Source: an uncultured Victivallales bacterium (GTDB lineage: Bacteria > Verrucomicrobiota > Kiritimatiellia > UBA8416 > JABMPJ01). Taken from it: 64,000 nucleotides of DNA. Both the position numbers and the translations under genes were made by a program. Shown piece by piece: positions 5,916 through 35,292 of the stretch. How positions within the stretch are numbered: the stretch's first letter is position 1; each line of letters opens with the position of its first letter. The notes under the pieces are model-generated. The model was not told the DNA's origin, searched no databases, and saw only the letters and a list, made by a program, of their open reading frames with translations. The DNA lies in contig CAYFPQ010000001.1 in NCBI GenBank assembly GCA_964345005.1, forward strand, positions 38,751 to 102,750. The letters run 5' to 3'.

Positions 5916-6650
5916 CTATCCAATCAACGAGTAGCTGGACAACAGTTTTCTTGTATCCTCAACGGAATTGAACATCATAACATCAACAATCGACAGGTTG
6001 GGCTCAAAGGGATTCCCGAATTGCCTGTAGGCTAGGTCTGGGTCCACGCGCAGGAATGCCAGATCGATGCCTGCATCTGAGAATGACTTGCTGTCGTACA
6101 GAGAGACTCCTCCTATTGGGTTGACGTAGGTCGCCGCGCCCTCATGCTGGCAGATAGCAATCACTCTGTCTTGGCCTTTGAGTGAATGGTCAACATCGAG
6201 GTGAGATGATATTGCCATCGAAGGTGTCATCTGCAGGTAGGAGCAGGCAGCCTTTAGAGAGTGAAGAATAAAGTCGAACAGATTCGTCTTGCTGTGCATC
6301 ACGCACTCCTCGACGAGGGGATAGGCATCGTCGAAGAAAGGGGCTCGCCGATACGCATTGCGAACTACGTTGAGGATCTTCTGTCTATCTCTATTGCTGT
6401 TCACGGCGATTTCTCGCTCGCAGACATGCAGTGTATCGGATGCATGCGCAACAGGTATGGTAAACACCCTTGGTGAACCGTGATCCAGAATGCGGTTTCG
6501 TTGGATCCATCCTTTCTTTGTGAACTCCACGTTGTCATAGACCACAAACCTGTCTGCACAGGTGAGTAGCTGGAAATACCCAATGTACGGAAGGAAGTAC
6601 GGCTGCATAATCGCCACTCTGGGCGCTTTGCATTGAGCAGGTTCAGGCAT
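5916..6650 (-). CDS. WbqC-family protein
   Basis: N-terminus 'VAIMQPYFLPYIGYFQLL...' is the conserved WbqC-like signature seen in O-antigen/perosamine-type clusters. 244 aa. Confidence 0.75.
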   Translation of the reverse strand: MPEPAQCKAPRVAIMQPYFLPYIGYFQLLTCADRFVVYDNVEFTKKGWIQRNRILDHGSPRVFTIPVAHASDTLHVCEREIAVNSNRDRQKILNVVRNAYRRAPFFDDAYPLVEECVMHSKTNLFDFILHSLKAACSYLQMTPSMAISSHLDVDHSLKGQDRVIAICQHEGAATYVNPIGGVSLYDSKSFSDAGIDLAFLRVDPDLAYRQFGNPFEPNLSIVDVMMFNSVEDTRKLLSSYSLIG

Positions 6651-7905
6651 GGGGATGTCCCTCCCTGATGCGCAGTATTGGCCGTAGAGGCTGATGCTGA
6701 CTGCGGGATCTGATCTGCTCCGCGTGTTCTCTAGCGAACGATATCAGACTGCATATGCGGCGGACCTGCGCCTGAGAAAGAAGGGGGCCCGTAGGTAGCA
6801 CTAGTACGCTATCGCAGGTTTGCCGCGTCGCTCCAAGGTTCCTGCCTCTCGCGTCTGGGGCACTGTGGCTGTGGTACGGCGCCATCATGTCACATCCCGG
6901 AAAGAAATAACGCCTCGCCATTATTCGCTCTGCCTCCAGGACGGCCAGCAATTCGTCACGCCTGAGGCCGAAGGTGTCAGCGGCCACCTCGGTGACCACG
7001 TAGTGATGCATGTTTGTCTGTGCCTCCTGGTACGTGACTAGGCCGATTCCGGGGATGTCCTTCAGGTGTTCGGCGTAGAGGGCGTGGTTCTCGCGATTGC
7101 GCTGGACGATACTGGGCAAGGCATCAAGCATGGACAGACCCATTACGGCTGAGACTTCGCTCATTTTGCCATTGGTGCCGAGGTAGATGACGTTGTCGCG
7201 ACCAGCGAAGCCAAAATTGGTCATTAGGCGTGCCTTCTCTGCCAGCTCTGCATTGTTCGTGACGATCGCGCCACCTTCAAACGTGCTGATGACTTTAGTG
7301 GCGTGGAAGCTGAAGACTTCGGCTTCGCCGAAATTGCCTATGTGTTTGCCATGGTAGGTGCTGCCGAAGGCGTGGGCGGCGTCGAAGATCAAGGGGAGGT
7401 CATGGCGTTTGGCGATGGTTTCAAGCGCGTCAGTATTGCATGGCTGTCCCCAGAGATGGGTTGCGCAGATGCCGCCGGTATTGGGGGTGATCAGGGATTC
7501 GACTTGCTCGGGGTCGATGTTGTGGGTTGCGGGATCAATGTCGCAGAACACCGGAGTCATGCCCTGCCACGCCATGGCGTGTGCAGTGGCGACGAAGGTA
7601 AAGGCGGGGACGATGATCTCGTTCCTAAAGCCGGCCGCACGGGCGGCGATTTCAAGGCCGATTGTTGCGTTGCAGACGGAGACGCAGTGCTTAGCGCCGG
7701 TGAATTCGCAGATGCGCTGCTCGAATTCGCGCACGTAGGGACCGAAGTTGGTGAACCAGCGGCTTTCAAGAATGTCGCGGAAACGGGCGAGGGTGGCGTC
7801 GATGTCGCCGACATTAGGGCGGCCGACGTGAAGGGGCTCGTCGAAGAGGGGGTTGCCTCCGAAGATGGCGAGGTCGTCGATGGTTTTCTTTTCGCGGTGA
7901 CTCAC
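6643..7905 (-). CDS. DegT/DnrJ/EryC1/StrS-family PLP-dependent sugar aminotransferase
   Basis: '...FDAAHAFGSTYHGKHIGNFGEAEVFSFHATKVISTFEGGAIV...' with the conserved Lys. First gene of the minus-strand operon; its stop overlaps the WbqC start by 8 nt. Confidence 0.85.
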   Translation of the reverse strand: MSHREKKTIDDLAIFGGNPLFDEPLHVGRPNVGDIDATLARFRDILESRWFTNFGPYVREFEQRICEFTGAKHCVSVCNATIGLEIAARAAGFRNEIIVPAFTFVATAHAMAWQGMTPVFCDIDPATHNIDPEQVESLITPNTGGICATHLWGQPCNTDALETIAKRHDLPLIFDAAHAFGSTYHGKHIGNFGEAEVFSFHATKVISTFEGGAIVTNNAELAEKARLMTNFGFAGRDNVIYLGTNGKMSEVSAVMGLSMLDALPSIVQRNRENHALYAEHLKDIPGIGLVTYQEAQTNMHHYVVTEVAADTFGLRRDELLAVLEAERIMARRYFFPGCDMMAPYHSHSAPDARGRNLGATRQTCDSVLVLPTGPLLSQAQVRRICSLISFAREHAEQIRSRSQHQPLRPILRIREGHPHA

Positions 7906-7914
7906 AGTGGTGTG

Positions 7915-7992
7915 GAGTATGTGGTCTGTGGGCGGGGGAGGTCAAGGATGGGGAGGAAATCTCGCGCGGAGGCGCAAGGTGGAGAGCTGGGA
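7915..7992. repeat. copy of a composite dispersed repeat (shares the 24-mer GGGGGAGGTCAAGGATGGGGAGGA with 25395-25418)
   Basis: Identical 24-mer at 7932 and 25395, and similar flanks '...tgggattatga...'. Lies between the DegT start and the HEPN stop. Confidence 0.5.
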
Positions 7993-8409
7993 TTATGACT
8001 GGGGCAGGAATCCGTTTGCGACGAGATATTGCTCTGCTGCGGTGAGTATGTCTTGGGCATGGCCAAGATCTGCTCTGGCATCCGCCTCATCAATGCTGAC
8101 ACCGATGTCATAGTCGCCTGTCTGCCGCTCGCGGAACAGGCGCGCTATCTTCTTGCCAAAATCCTTTGGGAATATGCCTGATACAACGAAATGCTTGCCG
8201 AATTCGGCAATGGTGCCACTGTGTGTGGAACAGGTGATGTCTCTGCTGAGTAGCAATGCCTCCAACGCATAGAAAGCAGTGTAATAGGCACGGGAGGCAC
8301 CGAAGTCGTAGTCACCCGCATCCACATCACGCTTTGCAGAAGCCATCGCTCGGCGTCCTTTGGTCAGCAAAGCTTGCAGTTGACTAGCCAGCTCGGGCGA
8401 AGGGGTCAT
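7993..8409 (-). CDS. HEPN domain protein (toxin-like partner of the upstream MNT)
   Basis: 138 aa. HEPN-type helical protein with 'R...AYYTAFYALEALL' and Rx4-6H-like features. Overlaps the MNT gene by 4 nt. Confidence 0.8.
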   Translation of the reverse strand: MTPSPELASQLQALLTKGRRAMASAKRDVDAGDYDFGASRAYYTAFYALEALLLSRDITCSTHSGTIAEFGKHFVVSGIFPKDFGKKIARLFRERQTGDYDIGVSIDEADARADLGHAQDILTAAEQYLVANGFLPQS

Positions 8410-8744
8410 ACAGGTACGCCTTCCTTCTCAATGTTCATGAAAAGTGGGTCAAACTTGCGGCCACGGGCAGTCGATTCGCTTGTCAAAAAGGCGGCCATGA
8501 CAACGCCAAACTGGTACAGCATTTGGCCCGCAATCTCATCGATTGCGTCTTTCATGTTGCGATTGACTTCGTCGACCACCACCAAGAGGTCATAATCGGA
8601 GTCGGGCTTGGCGTCCCCACGTGCACGTGAGCCAAACAGCACAATGCGTTTCAGGTGGCGGCCGAATTGTGCTTGGATACTGCCTCGGATGCGAGAGAGC
8701 ACCTGTGCTTGTTCGGCATGGTCATGTGCGCTTGTTTCAACCAT
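8406..8744 (-). CDS. nucleotidyltransferase (MNT) domain protein, HEPN-MNT module
   Basis: 'LFGSRARGDAKPDSDYDLLVVV' is the polymerase-beta-type NTase GS...D.D motif. 112 aa. Confidence 0.8.
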   Translation of the reverse strand: MVETSAHDHAEQAQVLSRIRGSIQAQFGRHLKRIVLFGSRARGDAKPDSDYDLLVVVDEVNRNMKDAIDEIAGQMLYQFGVVMAAFLTSESTARGRKFDPLFMNIEKEGVPV

Positions 8745-8856
8745 GTGTCTAGAGTGTCACACGCCCCGTTTCGGGTCAACGGCAAGATAAGCGATATCTG
8801 GTGGACGATTGCATGGATGAAATGCGAAGGTGAGCCGCAACGAAGGGGACAACGTG

Positions 8857-8940
8857 ATGCGTGAGCGGAATGCTTTGCTGTGGGCTGGAGTCGCAGCGCT
8901 TTTCTTGGTGGTGCTGCTCTCTGTGTTCTGGGAGCAGTAG
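8857..8940 (+). pseudogene. duplicated 5' fragment (27 codons + stop) of the YfhO-like membrane-protein gene that now starts at 9935
   Basis: 'MRERNALLWAGVAALFLVVLLSVFWEQ*' versus the intact N-terminus 'MRKRCFSRRAGVAALFLVLLLSVFWEP...'. About 85 bp of DNA is repeated, including the ATG. Confidence 0.6.
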
Positions 8941-9060
8941 TGGGTCTGGTTGCGAGCCGGAGATCAGAGATCAGAGTTCAGAGGGCGTAAGTCTGTAGCC
9001 GGAGCGGGAGTAAGAGGGGTCTCGTGCCCTCCGTCGCACGAGGCTATGGAGCGCGGGCCG
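8941..9060. repeat. composite dispersed repeat: heptamer array (GAGATCA/GCCGGAG units) plus the hairpin motif CTCGTGCCCTCCGTCGCACGAGGCTATGGAG
   Basis: 7-nt periodic units at 8956-9020. The hairpin-containing motif recurs at 12596-12630 and, in variant form, at 25500-25540. Confidence 0.6.
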
Positions 9061-9147
9061 AGATGCCAAGATGCAGAGCAGAAGAGCGGCACACGTTGGG
9101 AACAGGCACTTGTGGGCAGACGTCCGATTTGCTAGTCTCGATGCGTT

Positions 9148-9477
9148 ATGAGAGAGGTCGGAGAAGATGGTCTTGTCGAGGAGTTTGCCCGGCGGGTGCG
9201 AGCGGCCTTGCGTGACAAGGTTGCCGCCGTGATCTGGTTTGGGAGTCGGGTTCGTGGGCAGGCGCAAGAGGGTTCTGACTATGATCTGTTGGTGCAAACC
9301 CATCAGCCGATCAGTGCGACGGACCGTCATGCCGTAACCGATATCTCTATCGATCTCACCGCGCAATACAGGAAGTTGCTGGATGTGCACTATGCGGATG
9401 ACCGAAGAATGACCCCGAGCGAGGGAGTCCTGAGTCCTTTCCGTCTGACGGTCTTGCAGGAAGGGGTTCGCGTGTGA
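9148..9477 (+). CDS. nucleotidyltransferase (MNT) domain protein (second HEPN-MNT module)
   Basis: 'IWFGSRVRGQAQEGSDYDLLVQ' NTase motif. 109 aa. Overlaps the downstream HEPN gene by 4 nt. Confidence 0.8.
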   Translation: MREVGEDGLVEEFARRVRAALRDKVAAVIWFGSRVRGQAQEGSDYDLLVQTHQPISATDRHAVTDISIDLTAQYRKLLDVHYADDRRMTPSEGVLSPFRLTVLQEGVRV

Positions 9478-9878
9478 CGCTCTCGGATGAAGATCGTGCA
9501 GCCCTTATCTCGCAGCGACTAAGCACTGCTTCAGAGATGCTCGCCGATGCCGAGGTCCTTCTGGAGCGCGGATCTCTGCGAAGCGCCGCCAACCGCGCCT
9601 ACTACTGTGCTTACCACGCCCTCTCTGCACTCGCGATCAGTAATGCCCGGATCACAAAGACACATAGGGGCATCATTGGTTTCTTTCACTCGGAGTTTGT
9701 CTCAAAGGGCGTTTTCGACCGGCGTTTTGGACGTGCTGTCCAGGAGGCCTTTGAGGATCGCACCGAAGCCGATTACGAGGATATGCCGGATCTTGATCCT
9801 GATCAGATTCGGTGCCGACTGTCGGATCTCGGTGATCTTATCGTTCAGATTCGCGAGTACGTATCGGGTCGAGACTGA
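9474..9878 (+). CDS. HEPN domain protein (second module)
   Basis: 134 aa. 'RSAANRAYYCAYHALSALAIS...' matches the HEPN gene at 7993-8409 in architecture. Confidence 0.8.
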   Translation: MTLSDEDRAALISQRLSTASEMLADAEVLLERGSLRSAANRAYYCAYHALSALAISNARITKTHRGIIGFFHSEFVSKGVFDRRFGRAVQEAFEDRTEADYEDMPDLDPDQIRCRLSDLGDLIVQIREYVSGRD

Positions 9879-9934
9879 CATCTGTCTGCTTCCACAAATA
9901 CACACCATTGGAGCTGGTGAGAGGGCTACTTGGT

Positions 9935-12589
9935 ATGCGCAAACGATGCTTTTCGCGGCGGGCTGGAGTCGCAGCGCTTTTCTTGGTGCTGCTGCTCTCT
10001 GTATTCTGGGAGCCGTTGAATGGAGGGCGGTCGCTATACACAGGAGATTCGAATCTCGGCATCATCATGGCTCGGAAGGCCGGGCTGCCTGAACGTTGGT
10101 TCGGCGGTTGGGGAACACATGTGCTGCTCGGAGGTGCGGGCAGCACGCCGCTTACGCTGAGCCGGATGATGCACTGGTGGTTGCCTGCGGAGACATTCAA
10201 CGATCTGTCGTATGGTCTTTGTCTTCTTGTCGGCGCGCTATTGCTTGGGGCGTTTCTTCGGTTGCGGGGTGTTGGGTTTGTCGGAGTATGCCTTGCGGGG
10301 TTGGCAGCTTTCTGGACGGGCTCCAACCTGACGCTTCTCTATCCGGGGCATCTGGAAAAGTTCTTCTGTGTGATGTTGGGGACGGTGGTATTGGTGTGCC
10401 TGGAGAAGCTGGTCCTCACGCGACGGTGGCTGTGGGGGGGGCTGGCTGGTGGGGCTCTGGGCGGGATGTTTCTGGAGCAGCAGGATGTGGCGCTGTTCAT
10501 GGGGATCTTTCTGGGGGCGTATGCGGTGTATGCGATGCTGCGGGAGCAGCGGTTGCAGGAGGGCGGAGGTCAGAAGTCGGAAGTCGGAGGTCTGAGAAGA
10601 TCTGTGCGGTCACTAGGGGCTCTTGCTTTGCGTCTTGGACCGGTGGTGGCGGTGGCATTGTTGCTTGTGGGGCCGATTGTTGGGAAAACGTATCGGACGA
10701 AGGTTACGGAGACGGCTTCGGTTGGTGAAGGCGCCGGTGAGCAGCAGAAATGGGAATTCTGCACGCAGTGGAGTCTGCCGGTCGAGGAGTCACTGGATTT
10801 CATTGCTCCCAATTTCTTCGGGATCAGATCGGGCGCTCCCGCAGGTCCGTATTGGGGGCGGACCGGGCAATCGGCGGGATGGGAGCAGACGAAGCGGGGG
10901 CTGCGTAATCTGCGTACGGAAGGGATCTATATCGGGGTTATCCCGGTAGGGTTGGCGCTGCTCGGGGTGCTGTTGGCTCTGCTGGGTGGAGCAAACGAAG
11001 GCAATGAGAACACCGAACAGCCAACAAGGAACACCCAACTCCCAACGAACGGAAGAAGATGGGATGCGATCTTCTGGGGGGTAGTGGCGCTGGTGACGTT
11101 GCTGCTGTCGTATGGAAAGTTTGCGCCTTTCTATCGGTGGTTCTGGCAATTGCCGATGGTGCATCCGATTCGGAATCCCAACAAGCACCTGCACATGTTC
11201 CAGATTGCCATCGGCGTTCTTGCAGCGTTTGGTGTGGACGGTTTGCTGCGGGGGCAGTGGGCTGAGACAAGGCGTGGACGAGCGATCGTTTGGTGTGGTG
11301 CCGGGCTGTTTGTCTTGGCTGCCGTCGGGATGTTCATTGGCAGCGGGTTTACTCAAGGAACGAGTGGCGCTCTGGTGCAGGGGTTTATGAAGAACGGCTG
11401 GGGGCAGGCTGCTCCGGTGATCGTGCAGAACATGATTCGGGCGCTGGTGCATGGCGGGTGGATGGCGGTACTTGGATGTACTTGTGTTGCAGGGGTGGTG
11501 CTGGGAAGGATGGGAATGTTCTCGCGCAGAGGCGCGGAGGCGCAGAGAGGGAAATGGATCGGTGTTGGATGTGTTTGCGCCTTGGCCGTGGCGGTTGCAG
11601 CGGATTGCGTGTGGTATTCGCGTGATTACGTTAAGACGGTGGATGCCGATGCGGTTGTGGGTGAAAATGCGGTGACAGAGTACCTGAAGGAGAACCTTGG
11701 CTCACAGCGGGTGTTGTTCTTCTCTCAGTCGGGGTTCTACAACCAGTGGCTCTCAACGCTCTTTCGTGCGCATCTGATACCGTCACTTAACGCACCTTCA
11801 ATGGAAAGGCTGAGCAAGCAGTATCAGGAGTTTCTCGACACTGTGGGCAAGAATCCGCTTCGGCTTTGGGAGCTTGCAGGGATTCGGTATGCACTGGGGC
11901 CGGTGCAGGTCTGGTCGCAGATTCAAGGGCAGCCTGAATGGAAAGAGGCCTTTGAGCCAGTCATGGGGTTCAATGTCTTTCAGCGAAAGGGCGGCGTGGG
12001 TGTTGAGCCTGTGAGATCCGGACAGACGCCGCAGCATTTGGTTCTTAAGTACAAGCGGGGGATGGACAGGTATACCCTGGTGCCGTCTTGGCGGAGTGTG
12101 CCTGATGATATGGCTTGTGCAGAATTGGTGAAGGCGGGGTTTGATCCGCACACAGAGGCTTTGATGTCACCGACGTTTGCTCAAGAAATACCTGTTGGCG
12201 ATGCGACATCGCCCCCAGGGCGTGTAGATATTCTGAAGGAGACAGTTTCGTCGATGCGTGTCAAAACGCGGGCGCAAGGCGCACAGCTGATGGTTGTCAG
12301 TCAGCTCTATGATCAGGACTTCTGGGCAACTGTGGATGGTCAACCGGTACCAGTGGTGCGCTGTAATTTCTTGTGTCTGGGTGTTCCTGTTCCGGACGGC
12401 GAACATGATGTGGTTATTCGGTACCGCCCAAGTCTAGCGGGTTTCTTCGTCCAAGTGACTGGGGTGCTGGCTGTATTGGGGGCGGCGGTGGGCTTGGTGT
12501 TGTCAAGGAGGCCCCTCCGTCGCGCTGTGCGCTATGGAGGGCAAGCGGAGGCCGGAGGCCCGAGGTCGGAAGTCGAAGCAGAGAAGTGA
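9935..12589 (+). CDS. large polytopic membrane protein (YfhO-like / GT-C-like); function uncertain
   Basis: 884 aa with many hydrophobic segments and a large C-terminal soluble domain. Start set at ATG 9935; the track's TTG at 9908 gives an extension encoded by inserted DNA. Contains in-frame heptamer-repeat-derived segments at 10563-10596 (GGQKSEVGG), at ~10990-11050, and at the C-terminus (PRSEVEAEK*). Confidence 0.65.
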   Translation: MRKRCFSRRAGVAALFLVLLLSVFWEPLNGGRSLYTGDSNLGIIMARKAGLPERWFGGWGTHVLLGGAGSTPLTLSRMMHWWLPAETFNDLSYGLCLLVGALLLGAFLRLRGVGFVGVCLAGLAAFWTGSNLTLLYPGHLEKFFCVMLGTVVLVCLEKLVLTRRWLWGGLAGGALGGMFLEQQDVALFMGIFLGAYAVYAMLREQRLQEGGGQKSEVGGLRRSVRSLGALALRLGPVVAVALLLVGPIVGKTYRTKVTETASVGEGAGEQQKWEFCTQWSLPVEESLDFIAPNFFGIRSGAPAGPYWGRTGQSAGWEQTKRGLRNLRTEGIYIGVIPVGLALLGVLLALLGGANEGNENTEQPTRNTQLPTNGRRWDAIFWGVVALVTLLLSYGKFAPFYRWFWQLPMVHPIRNPNKHLHMFQIAIGVLAAFGVDGLLRGQWAETRRGRAIVWCGAGLFVLAAVGMFIGSGFTQGTSGALVQGFMKNGWGQAAPVIVQNMIRALVHGGWMAVLGCTCVAGVVLGRMGMFSRRGAEAQRGKWIGVGCVCALAVAVAADCVWYSRDYVKTVDADAVVGENAVTEYLKENLGSQRVLFFSQSGFYNQWLSTLFRAHLIPSLNAPSMERLSKQYQEFLDTVGKNPLRLWELAGIRYALGPVQVWSQIQGQPEWKEAFEPVMGFNVFQRKGGVGVEPVRSGQTPQHLVLKYKRGMDRYTLVPSWRSVPDDMACAELVKAGFDPHTEALMSPTFAQEIPVGDATSPPGRVDILKETVSSMRVKTRAQGAQLMVVSQLYDQDFWATVDGQPVPVVRCNFLCLGVPVPDGEHDVVIRYRPSLAGFFVQVTGVLAVLGAAVGLVLSRRPLRRAVRYGGQAEAGGPRSEVEAEK
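10563..10596. repeat. in-frame heptanucleotide tandem array (GGAGGTC AGAAGTC GGAAGTC GGAGGTC) inside a CDS
   Basis: Same GGAAGTC-type units as at 29384-29420, 29694-29721, 25419-25475 and 12546-12590. Confidence 0.7.
10990..11050. repeat. in-frame copy of the MITE-arm-like 7-nt-unit motif (gaacacc gaacagc caacaag gaacacc caactcc caacgaa)
   Basis: Shares the core CCAACAAGGAA with the MITE arms at 14900-14930 and with 35153-35189. Encodes 'NENTEQPTRNTQLPTNG'. Confidence 0.5.
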
Positions 12590-12700
12590 TATCTCGCGCC
12601 CTCCTTCGCACGAGGCTACGAAGGGCATACCACAACGCTGAGGCGCAAAGCAGGGAATAGGGACTGTGGGGCGGAAGTCCGAAAGCGGAAATCGGAGCCA
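12541..12700. repeat. composite dispersed repeat (heptamer array + CTCGCGCCCTCCTTCGCACGAGGCTACGAAGG motif + second heptamer array 12671-12700)
   Basis: Homologous to 8941-9060. The first 49 nt form the last codons and stop of the membrane-protein gene. Confidence 0.6.
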
Positions 12701-12732
12701 ACAGACGATCCTCCACCATCCCTTATTCGTCC

Positions 12733-13914
12733 TTGAAAAATGAAAGCCAAGCGTTCAATATTCAAGAAATGAAGGTTCGTAGAGACAGGTTGGAGTCGGC
12801 GGTTCGTGATGCGCTCAGGCGAGGGCGCTGCGTGGGACTCTCGGGTCCGCGACAGTGCGGCAAGAGCACGCTGGCAAGAGATATCGCGAGCCTGGAGTCG
12901 GCGGCTGCCTACTTCGACCTGGAAGACCCTGCGTCGGAAGCACGCCTGCAAGATCCAAAGCTAGCGCTACAGTCACTCCGGGGGCTGGTTGTTATCGATG
13001 AGATCCAGAGGCGCCCCGACCTGTTCCCGCTGCTGCGCGTGTTGCTGGATCGTGACCCGCTGCCAGCCAAGTTCCTTCTTCTGGGCAGTGCGTCACCGGA
13101 GCTGCTCCGAGGGGCATCGGAGAGCTTGGCGGGTCGGATCGAGTTCATCTCAATGAGTGGCTTCACACTGGACGAGACAGGAGATGACACCGCACGTCGG
13201 CTCTGGCAACGGGGTCGCTTCCCTCTGTCGTATCTGGCGTCAAATGACCATGACAGTATGAAATGGCGGTCAGCCTTCGTTCAGTCGTTCGTCGAGCGCG
13301 ATCTCAGACTTCTGGGGGTGGATCTGCCCCCCATGAGTGTACGGCGCCTGCTGACTATGCTTGCCCATTACCATGGCCAAACCTGGAATGCCTCAGAGAT
13401 AGGGAGAGCTCTTCAGCTATCGCACATGACCGTCAAGCGTTACCTGGACCTCCTCACCGGAGCCCTGCTTGTCAGACAGCTGCCTCCCTGGTTTGAGAAC
13501 GTGGGAAAGCGTGCAGTGAAGTCGGCAAAAGTCTACCTCAGAGACAGCGGGATATTGCACAGTCTCCTAGGGCTCGAGCAAATGGAAGATATGGAGAGCC
13601 ATCCCAAGCTCGGCGCTTCATGGGAGGGCTTTGCGCTTGAGATGCTCTTGGCGTGGAAGGGGGATGACAACGCGTTTTTCTGGGGGACACATGGTGGCGC
13701 CGAACTGGACCTCTGTTGGATGACCGGCAAGGAGCGCGTGGGGGTTGAGCTCAAGTACACAAGTCGTCCGGCTGTTACTCGCTCCATGCACATCGCCTTG
13801 GCGGACCTGAGACTCGATCATCTTTACGTCGTGCATCCCGGAACAGAGGACTATCCGCTCGCCGATCGGGTAACGGCAGCCAGTCTGGCAGCTATGCGTG
13901 GTATTTTGGGGTAG
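12733..13914 (+). CDS. ATP-binding protein, AAA_14 + DUF4143 family
   Basis: Walker A 'GPRQCGKST', Walker B 'VVIDEIQ', C-terminal '...VYLRDSGILHSLLG...' DUF4143 signature. About 50% identical to the paralogue at 16918-18084. Confidence 0.85.
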   Translation: MKNESQAFNIQEMKVRRDRLESAVRDALRRGRCVGLSGPRQCGKSTLARDIASLESAAAYFDLEDPASEARLQDPKLALQSLRGLVVIDEIQRRPDLFPLLRVLLDRDPLPAKFLLLGSASPELLRGASESLAGRIEFISMSGFTLDETGDDTARRLWQRGRFPLSYLASNDHDSMKWRSAFVQSFVERDLRLLGVDLPPMSVRRLLTMLAHYHGQTWNASEIGRALQLSHMTVKRYLDLLTGALLVRQLPPWFENVGKRAVKSAKVYLRDSGILHSLLGLEQMEDMESHPKLGASWEGFALEMLLAWKGDDNAFFWGTHGGAELDLCWMTGKERVGVELKYTSRPAVTRSMHIALADLRLDHLYVVHPGTEDYPLADRVTAASLAAMRGILG

Positions 13915-14252
13915 CTGACGATGCAAGAACTATGTGCGACACGATGACGCAAGTAGTCACCAACTGTCACAAATCTGAAGTCCCACTTTAGATCTGTCAT
14001 GGAGATGTACACAGAGCGCCGCGCGGGACGAACGCCCCGACTGTCGTAGGCGAGGCGGCCTCGCGGCTCAGGAATAGCTCGCCCCAGCTCTGAGGCCGTC
14101 TGAATCCACTCGTCAATGACGGTCTCTGCGTTGGCAAGCGCCTCATGGTATGTGCTGCCGTCAGCCATACAACCAGGGAGTTCGGGCACTTCAGCAACGA
14201 ACGCTTGATCCTCGTCGCTCCAGAAAATGATAATTTCATATCGGCTGGTCAT
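13851..14252 (-). CDS. hicB: HicB-family antitoxin (UPF0150 / RNase-H-like fold)
   Basis: N-terminus 'YEIIIFWSDEDQAFVAEVPELPGCMADGSTYHEALANAETVIDEWI' is canonical HicB. The ORF runs 133 aa and overlaps the 3' end of the ATPase gene, so the functional core may be shorter. Confidence 0.7.
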   Translation of the reverse strand: MTSRYEIIIFWSDEDQAFVAEVPELPGCMADGSTYHEALANAETVIDEWIQTASELGRAIPEPRGRLAYDSRGVRPARRSVYISMTDLKWDFRFVTVGDYLRHRVAHSSCIVSYPKIPRIAARLAAVTRSASG

Positions 14253-14254
14253 CG

Positions 14255-14400
14255 TTATTCCTCCAGATGGAGTCCATACTTCAGTATGATACCACGAATC
14301 TGTTTCACTTGGTATGGTTTTGCTTTGCTGTGTTTCGGTTTATGCCATGGTGGCGTCCAGGCTTGTGGCGGCCTCTGTTGGACGAGCGAGTCATTCTCGC
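14255..14400 (-). pseudogene. decayed HicA-like toxin remnant immediately upstream of hicB
   Basis: Minus-strand translation ends '...WHKPKHSKAKPYQVKQIRGIILKYGLHLEE*', aligning with the HicA C-terminal 'HPKKDIPIGTLKSILKQAGL' region. No start codon is present and the N-terminal half is degenerate, with a stop at 14471. Confidence 0.4.
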
Positions 14401-14480
14401 CGTCGCAGACCGAGAGCGGGAGGATTAATGTGTAGAAGCAAGTGCAGAAGTATGGCTGCTGTCCGTACTCTTACATACTC

Positions 14481-15201
14481 TTACACGTTGATCCTCTTTC
14501 TTTGGCCGACGTACTGTAGCTCATCGAGAAACATGACGAGTGCTGTGCCTGCTGCCGCCGCAGCCGTGCCGGCAGCTTGCAGGAGATCCTGTAGGTCATG
14601 TTCCAGATCGCCGTTGTCGGCGAGGCCCGGCTCTGGGGCGAGGTCCAGTCCCACTTCCAGATCCTGGTACTTGACCTTCAGTGCTTGTGCGAATCCAGCC
14701 AAGGCACGCAGCCCTCGCTGCGCCATGTCTCTGGCCTGTGCATGCTTGGAGAGTTTGATGAGCGCGATGCGCAGTTCAGGCGCCAGAAGGGCCGGTAACG
14801 AGCGGTTTTCCGGCGCTTCGGCCCGGATCCATGGCTGCAAGCTAGACCCTGTCCGAAAAGGGTTGGGACATCAGAAAGGGCGAATGACGGAGAGAATATC
14901 CAATATCCAACAAGGAATCTCCAATATCCAAGGTAAGACTTCGGTCGATACCGACGGAAACCGCGGAAGGTAGCGTGAAGTCCGGCAGAAGTTCCCCCCC
15001 TTGTAAATTGGATTTGAGTGTTGGCTGTTGGATATTGAGATTCCAAAGAGCGCAGATACCTTTTCGGACGACGTCTAGATAGTCGGGGTTGACGATGTGA
15101 TATAGAGGAATCTGTCGGGAGAGTTGCGCTACCAGTGTTGTCTTGCCAGACCCGTTTGGCCCGGCAAAAACTCTCAACCCAGGTATGCGCTCCGTTGTCA
15201 C
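14481..15201 (-). pseudogene. P-loop NTPase (ABC/RecF-type Walker A 'FAGPNGSGKTTL'; AAA_21-like) interrupted by a MITE insertion
   Basis: N-terminal 41 codons (15201-15079) carry the Walker A motif. The reading frame then enters MITE sequence. The C-terminal part resumes at 14840 and ends '...VMFLDELQYV...', a Walker B-like motif. Confidence 0.55.
14842..15078. mobile_element. MITE-like element, copy 1 (~237 bp; TIRs CTAGACCCTGTCCGAAAAGG / CCTTTTCGGACGACGTCTAG; arms built of 7-nt units)
   Basis: Near-identical to 36667-36908. Terminal inverted repeats of ~20 bp. Internal arms 'gaatatc caatatc caacaag gaatctc caatatc' and their complement. The track's spurious ORFs 'MESQYP(T/I)ANTQIQF...' occur in both copies. 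Confidence 0.8.
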
Positions 15202-15401
15202 CGGGGGATCTTGTAGGTGGGCTTTTTCGGTCTGACGTAGGCCTTCTCCAGTTCCATGACGGTTTCTTCGTGTCCTTCGGGCGAGCGCCGAATAATGCGT
15301 TTGCCTCGCTTGAAAGTCACGCTGAGCCCTCGTGCATATGCGTCACGTACGGCTGCGCGTGACGCTGTCTTGAATGCCTTGGCTATCTGTTGGCCTGTCA
15401 T
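15198..15401 (-). CDS. small basic protein (67 aa), translationally coupled (ATGA overlap) to the downstream P-loop NTPase; possible antitoxin-like partner
   Basis: The ORF ends 4 nt inside the ATPase start. No recognisable family. Confidence 0.35.
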   Translation of the reverse strand: MTGQQIAKAFKTASRAAVRDAYARGLSVTFKRGKRIIRRSPEGHEETVMELEKAYVRPKKPTYKIPR

Positions 15402-15652
15402 GAAGTGAACCTTAACATCGCGCTATGAGGGGTAAAGATGAAAGTGGTGTGGATTCATGTGCGAACGCCATGGGGCTTGCCTTTCGATAGCGACTGCGAT
15501 TCCTGCGATTCCGATTCCAACGAAACCGCTGGATCATACGAAGTCACTCTGCATCCTGACGAGAGTAGGCCGACCTTGTGTTTTCGAAATGCCAAAGAAA
15601 CGGAAATAACTGTGTTGCCTGTTTGCGTCTCTTATGATAGGGTGCTCCTGCG

Positions 15653-16801
15653 ATGAACGGAAGGCAACAGGGCTCGGGGAGAACGGTCATATGTCCTGGT
15701 GGTTACGAAGCGTACGTGCCGGATCCCCTTCCTCCTGAGATCGAACTCACTCCAGCCCTCCTTCGCTCGCTCTCCGATGCAGACCGCCTGCTGGGGAAGC
15801 TGGCCGGCGAGGGACGGGCGCTACGGAACCCGCATCTGCTTATGCGCCCCTTCATCAAGCAGGAGGCCGTTCTCTCAAGCCGCATTGAGGGTACGCAAGC
15901 CACACTTGGAGAGCTTCTGGCTTCCGATGCGGGGGCAACAGTGAGCAGGAGTCCTGCCGATTTGCGGGAAGTGGCGAATTACGTCACGGCCCTTGAATAT
16001 GGCATAGGCCGTCTATCTTCGCTCCCCCTGTCGCTCAGGCTTGTTGCCGAGCTTCACGGGAAACTGATGCAGGGCGTCCGAGGCGAGCAGATGACGCCGG
16101 GTGAATTCCGTCGCAGTCAGAACTGGATTGGGCCTCCGGGCTGCACGCTTCAAAATGCATCATACGTTCCGCCGCCCGTCGCGGAACTGATGTCGTGTCT
16201 GAGCGACTGGGAGACGTTCCTGCACGACCGCTCGCTCCCACCGCTGATCCAGGCGGCTCTCATGCACAGTCAGTTTGAGGCCATACACCCCTTTCTGGAT
16301 GGCAATGGTCGCGTTGGCCGGTTGTTGATCACGCTTTTCCTCGTGGAGCGGGATATTCTTCCAACGCCGCTTCTGTATCTTAGCGCTTTCTTCGAGGTCA
16401 CGCGTCGCGATTACTACGATCGACTCAATGGGGTCACCAGCAATGCAGCCTGGGAGCAATGGATTGAGTATTTCCTGAACGGCGTTGCCCGGATGTCTGA
16501 AGATGTCCTAGTGCGGGCCGAAAGAATCAACAACCTGTTCGAAGCATGGCGGAACCTGGCAGCGGGAAAGAGCAAGACCGCGCTGGAGATTCTTCACCTG
16601 CTGGAAGAGAATCCGTATTGCACGATCACAAAGACGGCAGAGAAGCTCGGAGTAGCCTTTACCACGGCTCAGCGTGGCATCGATCGCCTGGCAGCACTTG
16701 GGGTGCTGGAGCCGGTCGACGACGCAAGGCGGAATCGCGTTTTCTCTGCCCGGGAAGTCATGGATATACTGGATGCGCCTCCGGCTTTCGTTACGGCCTG
16801 A
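15653..16801 (+). CDS. Fic/Doc family protein (class II, with N-terminal inhibitory SxxxEG helix and C-terminal wHTH)
   Basis: Fic motif 'HPFLDGNGRVGR'. Inhibitory motif 'SSRIEG' upstream in the same polypeptide. 382 aa. Confidence 0.9.
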   Translation: MNGRQQGSGRTVICPGGYEAYVPDPLPPEIELTPALLRSLSDADRLLGKLAGEGRALRNPHLLMRPFIKQEAVLSSRIEGTQATLGELLASDAGATVSRSPADLREVANYVTALEYGIGRLSSLPLSLRLVAELHGKLMQGVRGEQMTPGEFRRSQNWIGPPGCTLQNASYVPPPVAELMSCLSDWETFLHDRSLPPLIQAALMHSQFEAIHPFLDGNGRVGRLLITLFLVERDILPTPLLYLSAFFEVTRRDYYDRLNGVTSNAAWEQWIEYFLNGVARMSEDVLVRAERINNLFEAWRNLAAGKSKTALEILHLLEENPYCTITKTAEKLGVAFTTAQRGIDRLAALGVLEPVDDARRNRVFSAREVMDILDAPPAFVTA

Positions 16802-16917
16802 ACGGGCGGATGTATCAGGAGACAACGATGCCGGCACTGCGGAAAAGAACTCAAATGGGTTGACGGGGCTCTTTGATGTGTTATTATCCATGTAAATAGA
16901 TTCAGGTAGAGCAAGAT

Positions 16918-18084
16918 ATGCATGGATATATAAGAAGAAGCGCTGAATCTGAGGTGTTGTCGGCTCTGGCACGATCACCTGCTGTAGCCATACTTGGGCC
17001 GAGGCAGTGTGGAAAATCCACGCTCGCAGAGCATATGTTGCGTGGAAGAGACGCCGTAAGTCTCGACCTACAGTCACGGCAGGACCTCGCCAAACTGGCG
17101 GAGCCCGAACTCTTCTTGGAGCAGCATCGGAGTCGCACGGTCTGCCTCGACGAGATTCAAAGACTCCCGGATTTCTTCACTATTCTGCGTTCTGAAATTG
17201 ATCGTGATCGTCGTCCGGGACGGTTTCTGATTCTTGGCTCTGCTTCCCGTGACCTGATCCGTCAGTCCAGCGAGACGTTGGCAGGCCGCATCGCGTATGT
17301 TCCGCTCACTCCGTTTCTGCTCCCCGAAGTGTCTTCCCGCGGCCCACTGTGGGACTTGTGGAGCCGAGGCGGTTTTCCTGAGAGTCTTCTGGCCTCGGAC
17401 GATGTGCAGAGTGCCGCCTGGCGGCGTGATTTCACGCAGACATTTCTGGAACGGGACATACCGGCCCTCGGGTTTTCGATACCGATGCCTGTCATGGATA
17501 GGCTCTGGCGACTACTTGCACACTACCATGGTCAGACGGCGAATTTCAGCAAGCTTGCCGAAGCAGCCGACATTTCCGTGCAGTCACTGCGTAAGTACCT
17601 GGCGCTTCTGGAGCAGACCTACATGTTGCGCATGTTGCCCCCCTACGAGGCGAATCTGAAGAAGCGCCTCGTGAAGGCGCCAAAACTGTACGTTAGAGAC
17701 AGCGGCGTCTTGCATTCCCTGTTGGAGATAGAGTCCTATGACCGTCTTCTTGGTCATAGCGTTGTGGGGGCATCCTGGGAGGGGTTTGCCTTGGAAAACA
17801 TCGTAGCTGGCCATCCGCTCTGGCGTTCTTCGTTTGTCAGGACGTCAAATGGCGCTGAGGTCGATCTGCTATTGGAGAGAGGGGGGATACGAAAGCTCTA
17901 CGAATTCAAGGCGTCCAAGGCGCCCAAACCTTCACGCGGTTTCCACCAACTGGTTCATGACCTCCTGCCTCAGTCTGCCGCCATTGTTGCGCCTGTCGAT
18001 GAGTCGTTTGCTATCGGGAAGGGCGTCCATGTTCTTACGTTGCTTGATGCGGTCGAAGGGCGCCGCGTGGGGCAGAGAGCTTGA
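16918..18084 (+). CDS. ATP-binding protein, AAA_14 + DUF4143 family (paralogue of 12733-13914)
   Basis: 'GPRQCGKST' ... 'VCLDEIQ' ... 'LYVRDSGVLHSLLE'. 388 aa. Confidence 0.85.
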   Translation: MHGYIRRSAESEVLSALARSPAVAILGPRQCGKSTLAEHMLRGRDAVSLDLQSRQDLAKLAEPELFLEQHRSRTVCLDEIQRLPDFFTILRSEIDRDRRPGRFLILGSASRDLIRQSSETLAGRIAYVPLTPFLLPEVSSRGPLWDLWSRGGFPESLLASDDVQSAAWRRDFTQTFLERDIPALGFSIPMPVMDRLWRLLAHYHGQTANFSKLAEAADISVQSLRKYLALLEQTYMLRMLPPYEANLKKRLVKAPKLYVRDSGVLHSLLEIESYDRLLGHSVVGASWEGFALENIVAGHPLWRSSFVRTSNGAEVDLLLERGGIRKLYEFKASKAPKPSRGFHQLVHDLLPQSAAIVAPVDESFAIGKGVHVLTLLDAVEGRRVGQRA

Positions 18085-18109
18085 CTGGGGTCATGGAGAA
18101 CGGAGTAAC

Positions 18110-25379: not shown

Positions 25380-25575
25380 GTGGGGCTGTGGGACGGGGGA
25401 GGTCAAGGATGGGGAGGAGGTCGAAGGCCGGAAGCCGGAAGCCGGAAGCCGGAAGTCGGAGGGCGGAGATCGGAATGGCCCCAGGCATTCTGCTTGGGTT
25501 ATGATCCTCCGTCGCCCTGTGGGCTATGGAGGACTCGTGTGCGACTCCTTTGGGGTGCGGGGGAGGATGACCTGT
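25380..25575. repeat. composite dispersed repeat containing an (RGYCGGA)8 heptamer array (25419-25475)
   Basis: 'ggtcgaa ggccgga agccgga agccgga agccgga agtcgga gggcgga gatcgga'. Flanks match 7932-7955 and 27880-27900 ('cctttggggtgcgg'). Confidence 0.7.
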
Positions 25576-29074: not shown

Positions 29075-29668
29075 TTACGTGCTGTCAGTGCGTGCAAATG
29101 CTCTTATGCGTGTCTTTCCGTATTCACGATCGACCACAGTCTGCCAACCCTCGGGCGCCTCGGTCTTAGATGCGCGGCGTCCACCGGGTGATTCATACAT
29201 GAAAATGCCGTCCTTGGCCAGCACCTGTCCTTCACGGATCAGCTCAAGCAGCTCGGTGAGCGGATCCTGCTGACCTGTCCGGGCATCAGCATAGGGCGGG
29301 TCGGCGTAAATGATGTCGTAAGGGGGACGTCCCGCGGCGCGGCGCAGGAAGCGCAATGCGTCGTCTGCGACCACTCTTGTGTTGCTTCCGACTTCTGACC
29401 TCTGGCCTCCGACCTCCGACACATTGGCGCGTAGCACGGCCAATGTGGAACGGTTCTGCTCTACCCAGGTGATTTCAGCGGCGCCGCGACTGAGCGCTTC
29501 AAGGCCGACAGCTCCGGAACCGGCGTACAGATCCAGAAACCGCGCGTCCGGTACACGAGACATCAGGATGTTGAACACGGCCTGGCGTACCATGTCCTGC
29601 GTGGGGCGCACGCCAGACTTCGGTGTCCGCAGATTCCTGCCCCTGTACTGACCTCCTGTGATGCGCAT
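29075..29668 (-). CDS. rsmD: 16S rRNA (guanine966-N2)-methyltransferase RsmD, carrying an in-frame heptamer-repeat segment
   Basis: 'DLYAGSGAVGLEALSRGA' ... 'ADPPY' motifs. The segment 'SEVGGQRSEVGS' is encoded by the GGAAGTC-type array at 29384-29420. Confidence 0.85.
   Translation of the reverse strand: MRITGGQYRGRNLRTPKSGVRPTQDMVRQAVFNILMSRVPDARFLDLYAGSGAVGLEALSRGAAEITWVEQNRSTLAVLRANVSEVGGQRSEVGSNTRVVADDALRFLRRAAGRPPYDIIYADPPYADARTGQQDPLTELLELIREGQVLAKDGIFMYESPGGRRASKTEAPEGWQTVVDREYGKTRIRAFARTDST
29384..29420. repeat. heptanucleotide array (reverse complement GGAGGTC GGAGGCC AGAGGTC AGAAGTC GGAAGC) in-frame inside rsmD
   Basis: Same units as 10563-10596. Read in place of the normally conserved inter-motif loop of RsmD. 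Confidence 0.7.
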
Positions 29669-35149: not shown

Positions 35150-35292
35150 CAGCAAGAACATCGAACATCGAACAAGGAACATCCAACGCAGAACTGAACG
35201 AGTCTTGAGGATAAGCGGTTGTCAGGCCGACTATTCGCCGACTCTCGCAGCGTTGGATGTTGGGAGTTCCTTGTTGGCTGTTGGATGTTCAA
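35150..35292. repeat. palindromic MITE-related element with 7-nt-unit arms (gaacatc gaacatc gaacaag gaacatc caacgc / complement)
   Basis: Arms at 35153-35189 and 35249-35290 are reverse complements. They share the CCAACAAGGAA core with the MITE arms but have a different central segment. Confidence 0.65.

What the first reader, a model, noticed from the sequence alone, without database searches (positions are those of the whole stretch)
8745..10020. An MNT-HEPN cassette sits between a direct duplication of the 5' end of a membrane-protein gene
The sequences 8857-8940 and 9935-10018 are ~85-bp direct repeats. Both start with ATG and encode the same signal/TM-like N-terminus (MRERNALLWAGVAALFLVVLLSVFWEQ* versus MRKRCFSRRAGVAALFLVLLLSVFWEP…). 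The upstream copy ends in a stop after 27 codons; the downstream copy continues into the 884-aa YfhO-like protein. The ~1-kb segment between them carries a copy of the composite heptamer repeat (8941-9060) and a complete MNT-HEPN gene pair (9148-9878). A second HEPN-MNT pair lies divergently just upstream (7993-8744). This looks like the scar of a cassette insertion or recombination into the 5' end of a gene, with the gene regenerating its start from the duplicated copy.
Basis: seen in the sequence. Interest (0 to 1): 0.6.

Follow-up and report, generated by a model that had tools for sequence, protein, structure and literature searches.

The report
Gene-start duplication flanking toxin-antitoxin insertion
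A 1-kb block carrying a repeat element and an MNT-HEPN toxin-antitoxin pair sits between a dead 27-codon copy and the live copy of the start of a membrane glycosyltransferase-like gene; it is a genuine but fairly ordinary recombination scar.

Summary
Positions 8844-8938 and 9920-10016 are direct repeats (82% over 99 columns; 29-nt exact core; none expected by chance). The upstream copy is a 27-codon stub ending in TAG. The downstream copy starts an intact 884-aa YfhO-like ORF. Between them lie a heptamer/hairpin repeat (R1) and an overlapping MNT-HEPN pair.

The closest relatives found (JGI contigs L002/L003, 75% aa; a Kiritimatiellia MAG L001, 65%) are empty sites. They have one gene start and no MNT-HEPN. 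In L002, DegT and yfhO are divergent neighbours 134 bp apart.

The ancestral 5' region aligns with the DNA upstream of the stub, not upstream of the live start. The live gene therefore sits 56 nt behind HEPN.

No transposase, integrase, terminal inverted repeats or short target duplication were found. Two other lineage-specific insertions at this locus lack duplications.

Best reading: host recombination produced an insertion-duplication, by one homologous and one illegitimate junction or by a single crossover of a circle.

Serious rival: the stub is an internally deleted second gene copy. R1 resembles the repeat at the gene's 3' end, and an out-of-frame peptide resembles its C-terminus.

Modest interest.

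The parts
6643..7905 (-). DegT/DnrJ/EryC1-type aminotransferase gene, the ancestral divergent neighbour of the yfhO-like gene
   Evidence: Pfam PF01041, E 9e-109. It is syntenic with L002 1400-2617.
7880..7952 (.). DegT-proximal part of the ancestral DegT-yfhO intergenic region
   Evidence: Aligns with L002 2590-2655. Contains a promoter-like site on the - strand, 7945..7916.
7953..8785 (-). Separate lineage-specific insertion: MNT (8406-8744) and HEPN (7993-8409), overlapping by 4 nt, plus about 40-nt flanks. It has no flanking duplication.
   Evidence: Pfam PF01909 and PF05168. The block replaces about 28 nt of the L002 spacer. No flank repeat was found. It is only about 30% identical to the other pair.
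8786..8856 (+). Ancestral 5' UTR / promoter-proximal region of the yfhO-like gene, now in front of the stub
   Evidence: Local alignment to L002 2683-2743 scores 21, against 8.5 +/- 1.4 in shuffles (0 of 2000 reach it).
8857..8940 (+). Upstream copy (A): 27-codon stub of the gene start (basic tail plus TM helix) ending in TAG
   Evidence: It is not called as a gene in the protein collection.
8941..9081 (+). R1, a composite repeat: heptamer array at 8960-8983, then a hairpin module (about 9018-9048) and a tail
   Evidence: TRF. 8974-9081 matches 12548-12653 at 68% over 108 nt, E 5e-9. The motif TCGCACGAGGCTAYG occurs only at 9034 and 12606 in the window.
9082..9147 (+). Spacer upstream of MNT. 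Presumed cassette promoter region (inferred only).
   Evidence: No sigma-70 consensus hit on the + strand. No similarity to the DNA that follows R2 (read).
9148..9477 (+). MNT (minimal nucleotidyltransferase, GS-X10-DYD motif), the presumed antitoxin
   Evidence: Pfam PF01909/PF18765. Nearest solved structure is the nucleotidyltransferase chain 9xbd_E; its entry 9xbd also holds a HEPN-domain chain matched by HEPN#2.
9474..9878 (+). HEPN protein of the UPF0332 / PF05168 branch, the presumed toxin. Its GTG start overlaps the MNT stop by 4 nt.
   Evidence: Pfam PF05168. Nearest solved structures are 2hsb (AF0298) and 9xbd. Relatives at 56-75% identity lie on contigs of about 1 kb.
9879..9934 (+). 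56-nt spacer between the HEPN stop and the live ATG. It is not homologous to the ancestral 5' UTR.
   Evidence: Shuffle tests against 8745-8856 and against the L002 upstream region are not significant. No + strand terminator-like site is present.
9935..10016 (+). Downstream copy (A'): the functional start codon, basic tail and TM1 of the gene
   Evidence: The N-terminal 'basic residues + TM helix' architecture is conserved in homologs.
9935..12589 (+). Intact 884-aa YfhO-like polytopic membrane protein gene
   Evidence: Pfam YfhO, 27.7 bits, just below the cut-off. Homologs carry PF09586 and some are named YfhO family. The gene is collinear with L002 and L001.
12512..12700 (+). R2, a composite repeat of the same kind as R1. 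It overlaps and extends the 3' end of the gene and is absent from L002 and L001.

Best explanation
Shown: a block of about 1 kb (R1 repeat, then the mnt-hepn operon, then 56 nt) is present in this lineage only. It lies between two copies of the first 26 or so codons (78-95 bp) of a YfhO-like gene. The upstream copy keeps the ancestral 5' region and is a dead 27-codon stub. The downstream copy supplies the start codon, basic tail and first TM helix to the otherwise intact gene.

Inferred mechanism: host recombination created the block and its flanking duplication in one step; a transposase or integrase was not involved. Incoming or ectopic DNA carried the cassette next to a yfhO 5' end. It joined the chromosome by homology on the gene side and by an illegitimate junction at codon 26. 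That is homology-facilitated illegitimate recombination. A single crossover of a circularised fragment across the roughly 80-bp segment would give the same product.

Inferred consequences: the live gene is now most likely transcribed from or through the toxin-antitoxin operon, because no terminator-like site lies between them. RecA-mediated deletion between the two copies would restore the empty site, but loss of the toxin-antitoxin pair would be counter-selected.
For: The duplication is real and unique in the window. Empty sites with a single gene start exist in L002/L003 and L001. The ancestral upstream DNA matches only the stub's upstream flank, and the live copy's 56-nt upstream flank is unrelated. 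The ancestral downstream gene body follows only the live copy. Homology ends sharply at both edges, between about -13 and the ATG, and at codon 26/27. No inverted repeats occur at the block ends. No integrase or transposase domains were found in 28 ORFs scanned between positions 325 and 33710. The other two lineage-specific insertions at this locus (7953-8785 and 12.6-18.1 kb) have no flanking duplication, so no element-encoded duplicating mechanism is at work. Identity is uneven: the 56-nt core is about 95% identical and the first 25 nt about 74% with indels. That pattern is expected if a crossover fell in the core or if the two tails come from different alleles. There is an experimental precedent: single crossover of circularised DNA in E. 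coli left 109-950 bp duplications of the homologous segment flanking the insert (PMC3240628). The N-terminal TM helix is conserved across the family, so only a product with a regenerated start would leave the gene functional.
Against: No donor arrangement and no close (strain-level) empty allele could be found. The nearest comparator is only 75% identical at the protein level, and both metagenome scans were empty. R1's only good match in the window is R2, at the 3' end of the same gene. The out-of-frame peptide at the junction, LCVLGAVVGLVASRR, matches the YfhO C-terminus LAVLGAAVGLVLSRR at 12 of 15 residues. This model treats both as coincidences. GC content gives no sign of foreign origin. 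Transcription of the live gene through the cassette is inferred only.
Confidence: 0.5

Rival explanations
1. The stub is what remains of a whole second (upstream, native) yfhO copy. At some stage two yfhO genes lay in tandem, each followed by an R element, with MNT-HEPN between them. This could arise, for example, by integration of a diverged homologous segment yfhO-R-MNT-HEPN. The promoter-proximal copy then lost codons 27 to about 850 by a microhomology-mediated internal deletion. What remains is the 5' end, the last few codons and R1.
For: R1 (8974-9081) is collinear with R2 (12548-12653) at the 3' end of the live gene: 68% over 108 nt, and these are the only two copies of the hairpin module in 64 kb. 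Directly at the junction, an out-of-frame reading gives VGLVASRR. The only 7-of-8 or better match in six frames of the window is the native YfhO C-terminus VGLVLSRR. The probability of such a match anywhere in YfhO is about 0.03, and lower still for that specific position. That C-terminal segment is native gene sequence, homologous to L002 and L001, and is not part of the repeat. Weak microhomology, TGGG(A/G)GC, occurs at both putative deletion endpoints.
Against: At the DNA level, the junction's similarity to 12465-12512 is no better than background. The first six 'matching' residues come from the A core read out of frame, so such coincidences demonstrably occur here. R1 and R2 differ in heptamer unit and carry several indels, and are about 30% diverged. 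The putative 3' fragment is about 40% diverged, whereas the A core is 5% diverged. The model therefore needs an extra gene-conversion step. A recent in-genome tandem duplication is excluded, because the arrays in the two 98%-identical MITE copies differ at only one base. The model needs at least two or three events. L002 and L001 have one gene copy and no R at its 3' end.
Confidence: 0.22
2. The two repeats are attL and attR of a small integrase-less element, a cis-mobilisable remnant. A tyrosine recombinase encoded elsewhere integrated it site-specifically into the 5' end of yfhO. The element carries a mimic of the gene start, as SXT/R391 does at prfC.
For: The architecture matches. The native promoter and truncated start lie on one side, and a diverged replacement start fused to the native gene body lies on the other, with a highly similar core of 29 nt exact and 53 of 56 overall. 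[quoted passage not shown]
Against: No integrase, excisionase or transposase was found in the block or in the 28 ORFs scanned between positions 325 and 33710. The core is not identical. The closest relatives of the cassette (L004, L005, L010) show no yfhO-like sequence at their ends.
Confidence: 0.07
3. Assembly artefact: a metagenome assembler threaded two strain variants, one with and one without the cassette, through the shared core and so created a false duplication.
For: The source appears to be a metagenome-assembled contig (134 kb; its proteins are singletons from NCBI). Repeats are common break or chimera points, and relatives of the cassette sit on contigs of about 1 kb that end in repeats.
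Against: Each copy has its own private substitutions and indels. The junction from core to R1 (8934-8941) would have to exist in real reads. A variant lacking the cassette cannot supply it.
Confidence: 0.05
4. The 27-codon ORF is an independent functional small membrane protein or leader peptide and not a remnant.
For: It has an ATG, a purine-rich stretch upstream and an intact TM helix. The core has diverged little from the live copy.
Against: No equivalent small ORF exists upstream of the orthologs in L001, L002/L003 or L006-L009. Its upstream DNA is the ortholog of the yfhO 5' region. It has lost the basic residues of the tail (R to W, and an added E), which fits decay. It is not annotated in the protein collection.
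Confidence: 0.03
5. The R-type repeat, or the cassette itself, is a mobile element whose insertion mechanism produces an unusually long (about 80-95 bp) target-site duplication.
For: The heptamer/hairpin repeat lies exactly at the left junction. Relatives of this MNT-HEPN subfamily are also next to such repeats (L005, L010). Heptamer arrays are components of a genuine MITE-like element in this window.
Against: No other R copy or insertion in the window is flanked by a long duplication. The MITE-like element has terminal inverted repeats and at most a short CTAG-type duplication. R has a different orientation and side relative to the cassette in the window, L005 and L010, so the two do not form a fixed unit.
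Confidence: 0.04

Closest known systems
Insertion-duplication by single crossover, or homology-facilitated illegitimate recombination (HFIR), as seen experimentally in E. coli conjugation and naturally transformable bacteria (PMC3240628)
   Same: Foreign DNA is flanked by a direct duplication of a short chromosomal segment that is single-copy in the empty site. The upstream copy is truncated at its 3' side and the downstream copy lacks the native upstream flank. No element-encoded recombinase is involved. The experimental duplications (109-950 bp) are of the same order of size.
   Different: This is a natural, old event (about 14% divergence between the copies) and the donor is unknown. At about 80-95 bp, the duplicated segment is slightly shorter than the experimental range. 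The cargo is a toxin-antitoxin pair plus a repeat element.
[quoted passage not shown] That the element supplies a new promoter and N-terminus is from my own knowledge of Hochhut & Waldor 1999.
   Same: An insertion into the 5' end of a gene leaves a truncated native start on one side. The gene is rebuilt on the other side with a replacement start next to the inserted DNA.
   Different: SXT is an element of about 100 kb with its own tyrosine integrase and a short att core. Here the insert is 1 kb with no recombinase.
MNT-HEPN two-gene modules (predicted toxin-antitoxin systems, PMC2701414; type VII HepT/MntA, PMC7641770, PMC11586414)
   Same: A minimal nucleotidyltransferase gene with the GS-X10-DXD motif lies immediately upstream of, and overlaps, a small HEPN-domain gene. 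Such modules are scattered as accessory cassettes between core genes.
   Different: The HEPN proteins here belong to the PF05168 / UPF0332 branch (nearest structure AF0298), not to the DUF86 HepT branch in which AMPylation was shown. The catalytic motif is not clear-cut and no function was tested.
Merodiploids, meaning partial duplications generated during transformation (PMC3784515, seen; abstract only)
   Same: Recombination with exogenous DNA creates partial duplications of chromosomal segments.
   Different: I read only the abstract, which speaks of partial chromosome duplication and gives no scale. Here the duplication is under 100 bp and flanks a 1-kb insertion.

Membership tests
MNT-HEPN toxin-antitoxin module (HepT/MntA-like, type VII) | Antitoxin is a minimal nucleotidyltransferase with the GS-X10-DXD active-site motif | tested here: met
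   PF01909/PF18765 score above their cut-offs for both MNTs. The motifs GSRVRGQAQEGSDYD (pair 2) and GSRARGDAKPDSDYD (pair 1) are read from the translations.
MNT-HEPN toxin-antitoxin module (HepT/MntA-like, type VII) | Toxin is a small HEPN-domain protein | tested here: met
   PF05168 at 47-54 bits against a cut-off of 22. The nearest solved structures are 2hsb (UPF0332 AF0298) and the HEPN-domain chain 9xbd_A; the same entry 9xbd also holds a nucleotidyltransferase chain matched by MNT#2.
MNT-HEPN toxin-antitoxin module (HepT/MntA-like, type VII) | Two-gene operon with MNT first and overlapping or abutting ORFs | tested here: met
   9148-9477 / 9474-9878 and 8744-8406 / 8409-7993 each overlap by 4 nt.
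MNT-HEPN toxin-antitoxin module (HepT/MntA-like, type VII) | Rx4-6H RNase motif in HEPN | tested here: inconclusive
   HEPN#2 has RAYYCAYH. HEPN#1 has RAYYTAFY, with Tyr in place of His. The nearest structure, AF0298, lacks the Arg at this position, and the family-wide conserved motif is R-x-E-x-DY. These proteins are not in the DUF86 HepT branch.
MNT-HEPN toxin-antitoxin module (HepT/MntA-like, type VII) | Toxicity of HEPN and its neutralisation by MNT-catalysed AMPylation | not testable with these tools
   Requires expression and biochemical assays.
YfhO family membrane protein (PF09586) | Pfam YfhO model at or above the gathering score | tested here: inconclusive
   27.7 bits against a cut-off of 28.5, covering the C-terminal 64 residues only. 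Several homologs at 31-75% identity carry precomputed PF09586, and some are named YfhO family by their sources.
Insertion-duplication (single crossover / HFIR product) | The two repeats correspond to one contiguous segment that is single-copy at the empty site | tested here: met
   L002/L003 and L001 have one gene start.
Insertion-duplication (single crossover / HFIR product) | The upstream copy keeps the native upstream flank only, and the downstream copy keeps the native downstream flank only | tested here: met
   Shuffle-tested alignments and tblastx collinearity of the gene body.
Insertion-duplication (single crossover / HFIR product) | No transposon hallmarks (terminal inverted repeats, short target duplication, transposase) | tested here: met
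   No inverted repeats at the block ends. No recombinase domains in the scanned ORFs.
Insertion-duplication (single crossover / HFIR product) | Existence of a donor molecule carrying the cassette next to a yfhO 5' segment | not testable with these tools
   No closer relatives were found in any collection searched.
Site-specific integrative element (SXT/prfC-like, or a cis-mobilisable remnant) | Cognate integrase in or next to the element | tested here: not met
   The 1-kb block encodes only MNT and HEPN. No integrase domain was found in the 28 ORFs scanned between positions 325 and 33710.
Site-specific integrative element (SXT/prfC-like, or a cis-mobilisable remnant) | Identical att core in both flanking repeats | tested here: inconclusive
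   There is a 29-nt exact stretch, but 3 mismatches across the 56-nt core.

The most novel reading that the evidence does not exclude
The R1-MNT-HEPN block could be a recombinase-free mobile cassette that spreads by carrying a decoy copy of a host gene's first 80 or so bases. Host RecA would then integrate it by a single crossover at the 5' end of that gene. This would cut the gene off from its own promoter and place it under the toxin-antitoxin operon's transcription. The toxin-antitoxin pair would in turn penalise the reverse deletion between the two repeats. If so, this is a self-stabilising 'promoter capture' mode of toxin-antitoxin mobility, possibly helped by the heptamer/hairpin repeats that accompany this cassette subfamily in three independent contigs.
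Probability: 0.08. Interest if true: 0.6.

Novelty: new member of a known kind. Interest (0 to 1): 0.3.

Why it matters
How the very abundant MNT-HEPN cassettes move between and within genomes is poorly documented. Here the empty site, both junctions and the collateral partial gene duplication can all be read from sequence, and they point to host recombination and not to a dedicated mobile-element enzyme. The case also shows a practical consequence: an envelope glycosyltransferase-like gene has been separated from its ancestral 5' region and now sits directly behind a toxin-antitoxin operon, which may couple its expression to that operon. The finding is an instructive case and does not describe a new system.

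Tried and rejected
- **The window's own genome and strain-level relatives.** Exact-protein look-ups found no contig. The genome scan returned only a 65% ortholog. A conserved 5'-UTR DNA pattern and the protein query both returned nothing from the metagenome collection.
- **RNA explanations.** Rfam gave no hit in the region at E up to 1, and none in the whole window at gathering thresholds. R1 does not fold better than shuffles (z = 0.44).
- **Promoter and terminator scan.** There is no + strand sigma-70-like site between 7850 and 10100. The only + strand terminator-like hairpin near the duplication lies inside the duplicated coding segment and is weak.
- **Duplication extending upstream of the ATG.** Not significant.
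- **Recent duplication of the two MNT-HEPN pairs.** Rejected, because they are only 28-31% identical.
- **Flank duplications at the other two insertions.** None found.
- **DNA-level homology of the junction to the yfhO 3' end.** No better than background. Only the peptide-level hint remains.
- **GC contrast of the cassette.** None.
- **A 14-nt inverted match (8751-8764 / 9470-9483).** Judged to be at chance level from the expected number of such pairs.
- **Context of the closest HEPN relatives.** All lie on contigs of 0.9-1.3 kb, too short to show insertion sites.
- **Recent in-genome tandem duplication that includes R.** Rejected, because R1 and R2 differ in heptamer unit and in indels, whereas arrays are stable in 98%-identical MITE copies.

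Full report
**1. The observation**

The region reads as described. An ATG at 8857 opens a 27-codon ORF, MRERNALLWAGVAALFLVVLLSVFWEQ, closed by TAG at 8938-8940. An ATG at 9935 opens an 884-aa ORF that begins MRKRCFSRRAGVAALFLVLLLSVFWEPLNGG.

- The repeat finder reports 8874-8938 vs 9952-10016 at 91%.
- blastn extends the match to 8844-8938 vs 9920-10016: 99 columns, 82%, E about 5e-19.
- A 29-nt core occurs exactly twice, against 0 expected.
- A global alignment of the first 78 coding bases gives 69 of 80 identical columns. The first 25 nt are about 74% identical with two compensating 2-nt indels. The next 56 nt differ at 3 positions.
- No comparable repeat flanks anything else in the 64 kb.

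Pfam confirms two MNT-HEPN pairs: 9148-9477 / 9474-9878 on the + strand and 8744-8406 / 8409-7993 on the - strand. Each pair overlaps by 4 nt. The two pairs are only about 30% identical to each other, so they were acquired independently.

The 884-aa protein hits the YfhO model just below its cut-off. Its homologs carry that domain.

**2. Empty sites**

The organism is related to Kiritimatiellia. The best genome hit is a MAG contig (L001) with a 65% ortholog. A 75% ortholog (P0002) lies on two JGI metagenome contigs, L002 and L003.

In L002 the DegT aminotransferase gene and the yfhO-like gene are divergent neighbours. The true ATG is at 2752; the gene caller started too late. The two genes are separated by 134 bp, with one gene start and no MNT-HEPN.

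- The DegT-side part of that spacer aligns with window 7880-7952.
- The yfhO-side part aligns with window 8786-8846, immediately upstream of the stub. The score is 21 against 8.5 +/- 1.4 in shuffles, and 0 of 2000 shuffles reach it.
- The 56 nt upstream of the live ATG (9879-9934) resemble neither the stub's upstream flank nor the L002 spacer.
- More distant orthologs (L001, L006-L009) also have a single start and no toxin-antitoxin genes upstream.

The stub is therefore not a conserved small gene. It is the ancestral start of the gene, cut off from its body.

**3. Wider context**

tblastx against L002 and L001 shows three lineage-specific blocks at this locus.

- 7953-8785 carries the HEPN-MNT pair on the minus strand.
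- About 8935-9934 carries R1, MNT-HEPN and the duplicated segment.
- 12.6-18.1 kb is an accessory island with two DUF4143 ATPases, HicB and a Fic protein. In both relatives the next gene follows yfhO directly.

Only the middle block has a flanking duplication. The 28 ORFs scanned between positions 325 and 33710 contain no integrase or transposase domain. The block ends carry no inverted repeats. GC content shows no contrast.

**4. The repeat element**

R1 (8941-9081) consists of a heptamer array, a 10-bp hairpin and a tail. Its only good match in the window is R2 at the 3' end of the same gene: 8974-9081 vs 12548-12653, 68% identical. The motif TCGCACGAGGCTAYG occurs only at these two places. 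R2 supplies the last 25 or so codons and the stop of the gene, and is absent from L002 and L001.

The closest relatives of HEPN#2 (56-75% identical) all lie on contigs of about 1 kb.

- L005 carries a heptamer array and the same hairpin motif downstream of HEPN.
- L010 has arrays on both sides and a reversed hairpin-like module.

The repeats therefore accompany this cassette subfamily, but without a fixed side or orientation. They are not a defined cassette end.

**5. Mechanism**

Each copy of the duplicated segment keeps only one native flank, and the edges of homology are sharp. There are no transposon hallmarks. This is the product expected from one homologous and one illegitimate junction. 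It is equally the product expected from a single crossover between the chromosome and a circularised fragment that carries a short homologous segment. Single crossover of circularised plasmid DNA after conjugation in E. coli produced exactly this, with duplications of 109-950 bp flanking the insert (PMC3240628).

The N-terminal 'basic tail + TM helix' is conserved across the family. Only a product that regenerates the start would leave a working gene.

By inference, the gene is now transcribed from or through the MNT-HEPN operon. The spacer is 56 nt and contains no terminator-like site. Also by inference, deletion between the repeats would restore the empty site at the cost of losing the toxin-antitoxin pair.

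**6. The main rival**

Read out of frame, the junction encodes LCVLGAVVGLVASRR. The native C-terminus of YfhO is LAVLGAAVGLVLSRR. VGLVASRR has its only 7-of-8 or better match in six frames of the window at that position. The probability of such a match anywhere in the protein is about 0.03. The C-terminal segment is native gene sequence, not repeat. Together with the R1-R2 collinearity, this suggests the stub might be an internally deleted whole gene copy: 5' end, last codons and 3' repeat.

Against this rival:
- The DNA-level similarity is at background.
- The first six matching residues come from the duplicated core read out of frame, so such coincidences happen here.
- R1/R2 and the putative 3' fragment are 30-40% diverged, whereas the core is 5% diverged. 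The model needs an additional gene-conversion step.
- A recent in-genome tandem duplication is excluded, because the arrays differ at only one base between two 98%-identical MITE copies.

I give this rival about 0.2.

**7. Comparison with known systems, and verdict**

The gene pair meets the sequence-level criteria for an MNT-HEPN module. It belongs to the UPF0332 / PF05168 branch and not to the DUF86 HepT branch where AMPylation was demonstrated (PMC7641770). The RNase motif is ambiguous and function is untested.

It is a well-preserved natural insertion-duplication that involves a toxin-antitoxin cassette. It is instructive but not a new kind of system. Interest 0.3.

Noticed in passing
window 14842-15078 and 36671-36907: A MITE-like element of about 240 nt occurs in two copies that are 98% identical. 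It has terminal inverted repeats (CTAGAC..GTCCGAAAAGG) and internal heptamer arrays in inverted orientation (AATATCC / GGATATT). Its flanks suggest a short CTAG-type target duplication. No transposase is nearby.
   Followed up: partly
window 10555-10597, 10998-11046, 11524-11547 (inside the yfhO-like ORF); also 29383-29420 inside a methyltransferase ORF: Heptamer arrays lie in frame inside coding sequences. They encode short low-complexity loops (for example QKSEVGGLRRSVRS and NTEQPTRNTQLPT). These loops differ in sequence and length among the orthologs P0002 and P0003.
   Followed up: partly
window 12512-12700: Repeat element R2 overlaps the 3' end of the yfhO-like gene. It supplies roughly the last 25 codons and the stop codon. 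The orthologs in L002 and L001 end earlier and have no such element.
   Followed up: partly
window 12590-18110: A 5.5-kb accessory island is absent from L002 and L001. It carries two paralogous DUF4143/AAA_14 ATPases (12733-13914 and 16918-18084), a HicB-like antitoxin (13851-14252, minus strand), a Fic/DOC protein with an HTH domain (15653-16801) and an ORF with no Pfam hit (14314-14973).
   Followed up: partly
window 7953-8785: The upstream HEPN-MNT pair is a separate insertion into the same 134-bp ancestral spacer. It may have displaced the -35 region of the ancestral yfhO promoter. Its HEPN has Tyr where the other HEPN has His in the RAYYxxxH stretch.
   Followed up: partly
window about 7930-7958 and about 25391-25424: A shared motif of about 28 nt, GGG(A)CGGGGGAGGTCAAGGATGGGGAGGA, contains a TTGACC -35-like hexamer on the minus strand. 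In the second copy a (GCCGGAA)n heptamer array follows it directly.
   Followed up: no
L005 640-850; L010 95-150 and 1200-1270: The closest relatives of the MNT-HEPN#2 cassette, from other metagenomes, are flanked by heptamer arrays and hairpin-motif modules. Their contigs end within about 120 nt of these repeats. This suggests multi-copy repeats that break assemblies and a recurrent association between this cassette subfamily and the repeats.
   Followed up: partly
window 19450-21768 (minus strand) vs L002 6749-9070 (plus strand): The GH172/DUF2961 gene downstream of the locus is inverted relative to its orientation in L002.
   Followed up: no
window 35156-35289 and 37990-38085: Pairs of heptamer arrays lie in inverted orientation (GAACATC / GTTGGAT, and TAGGCTG / CCTACAG), separated by 40-65 nt. 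They could form long hairpins in intergenic DNA.
   Followed up: no
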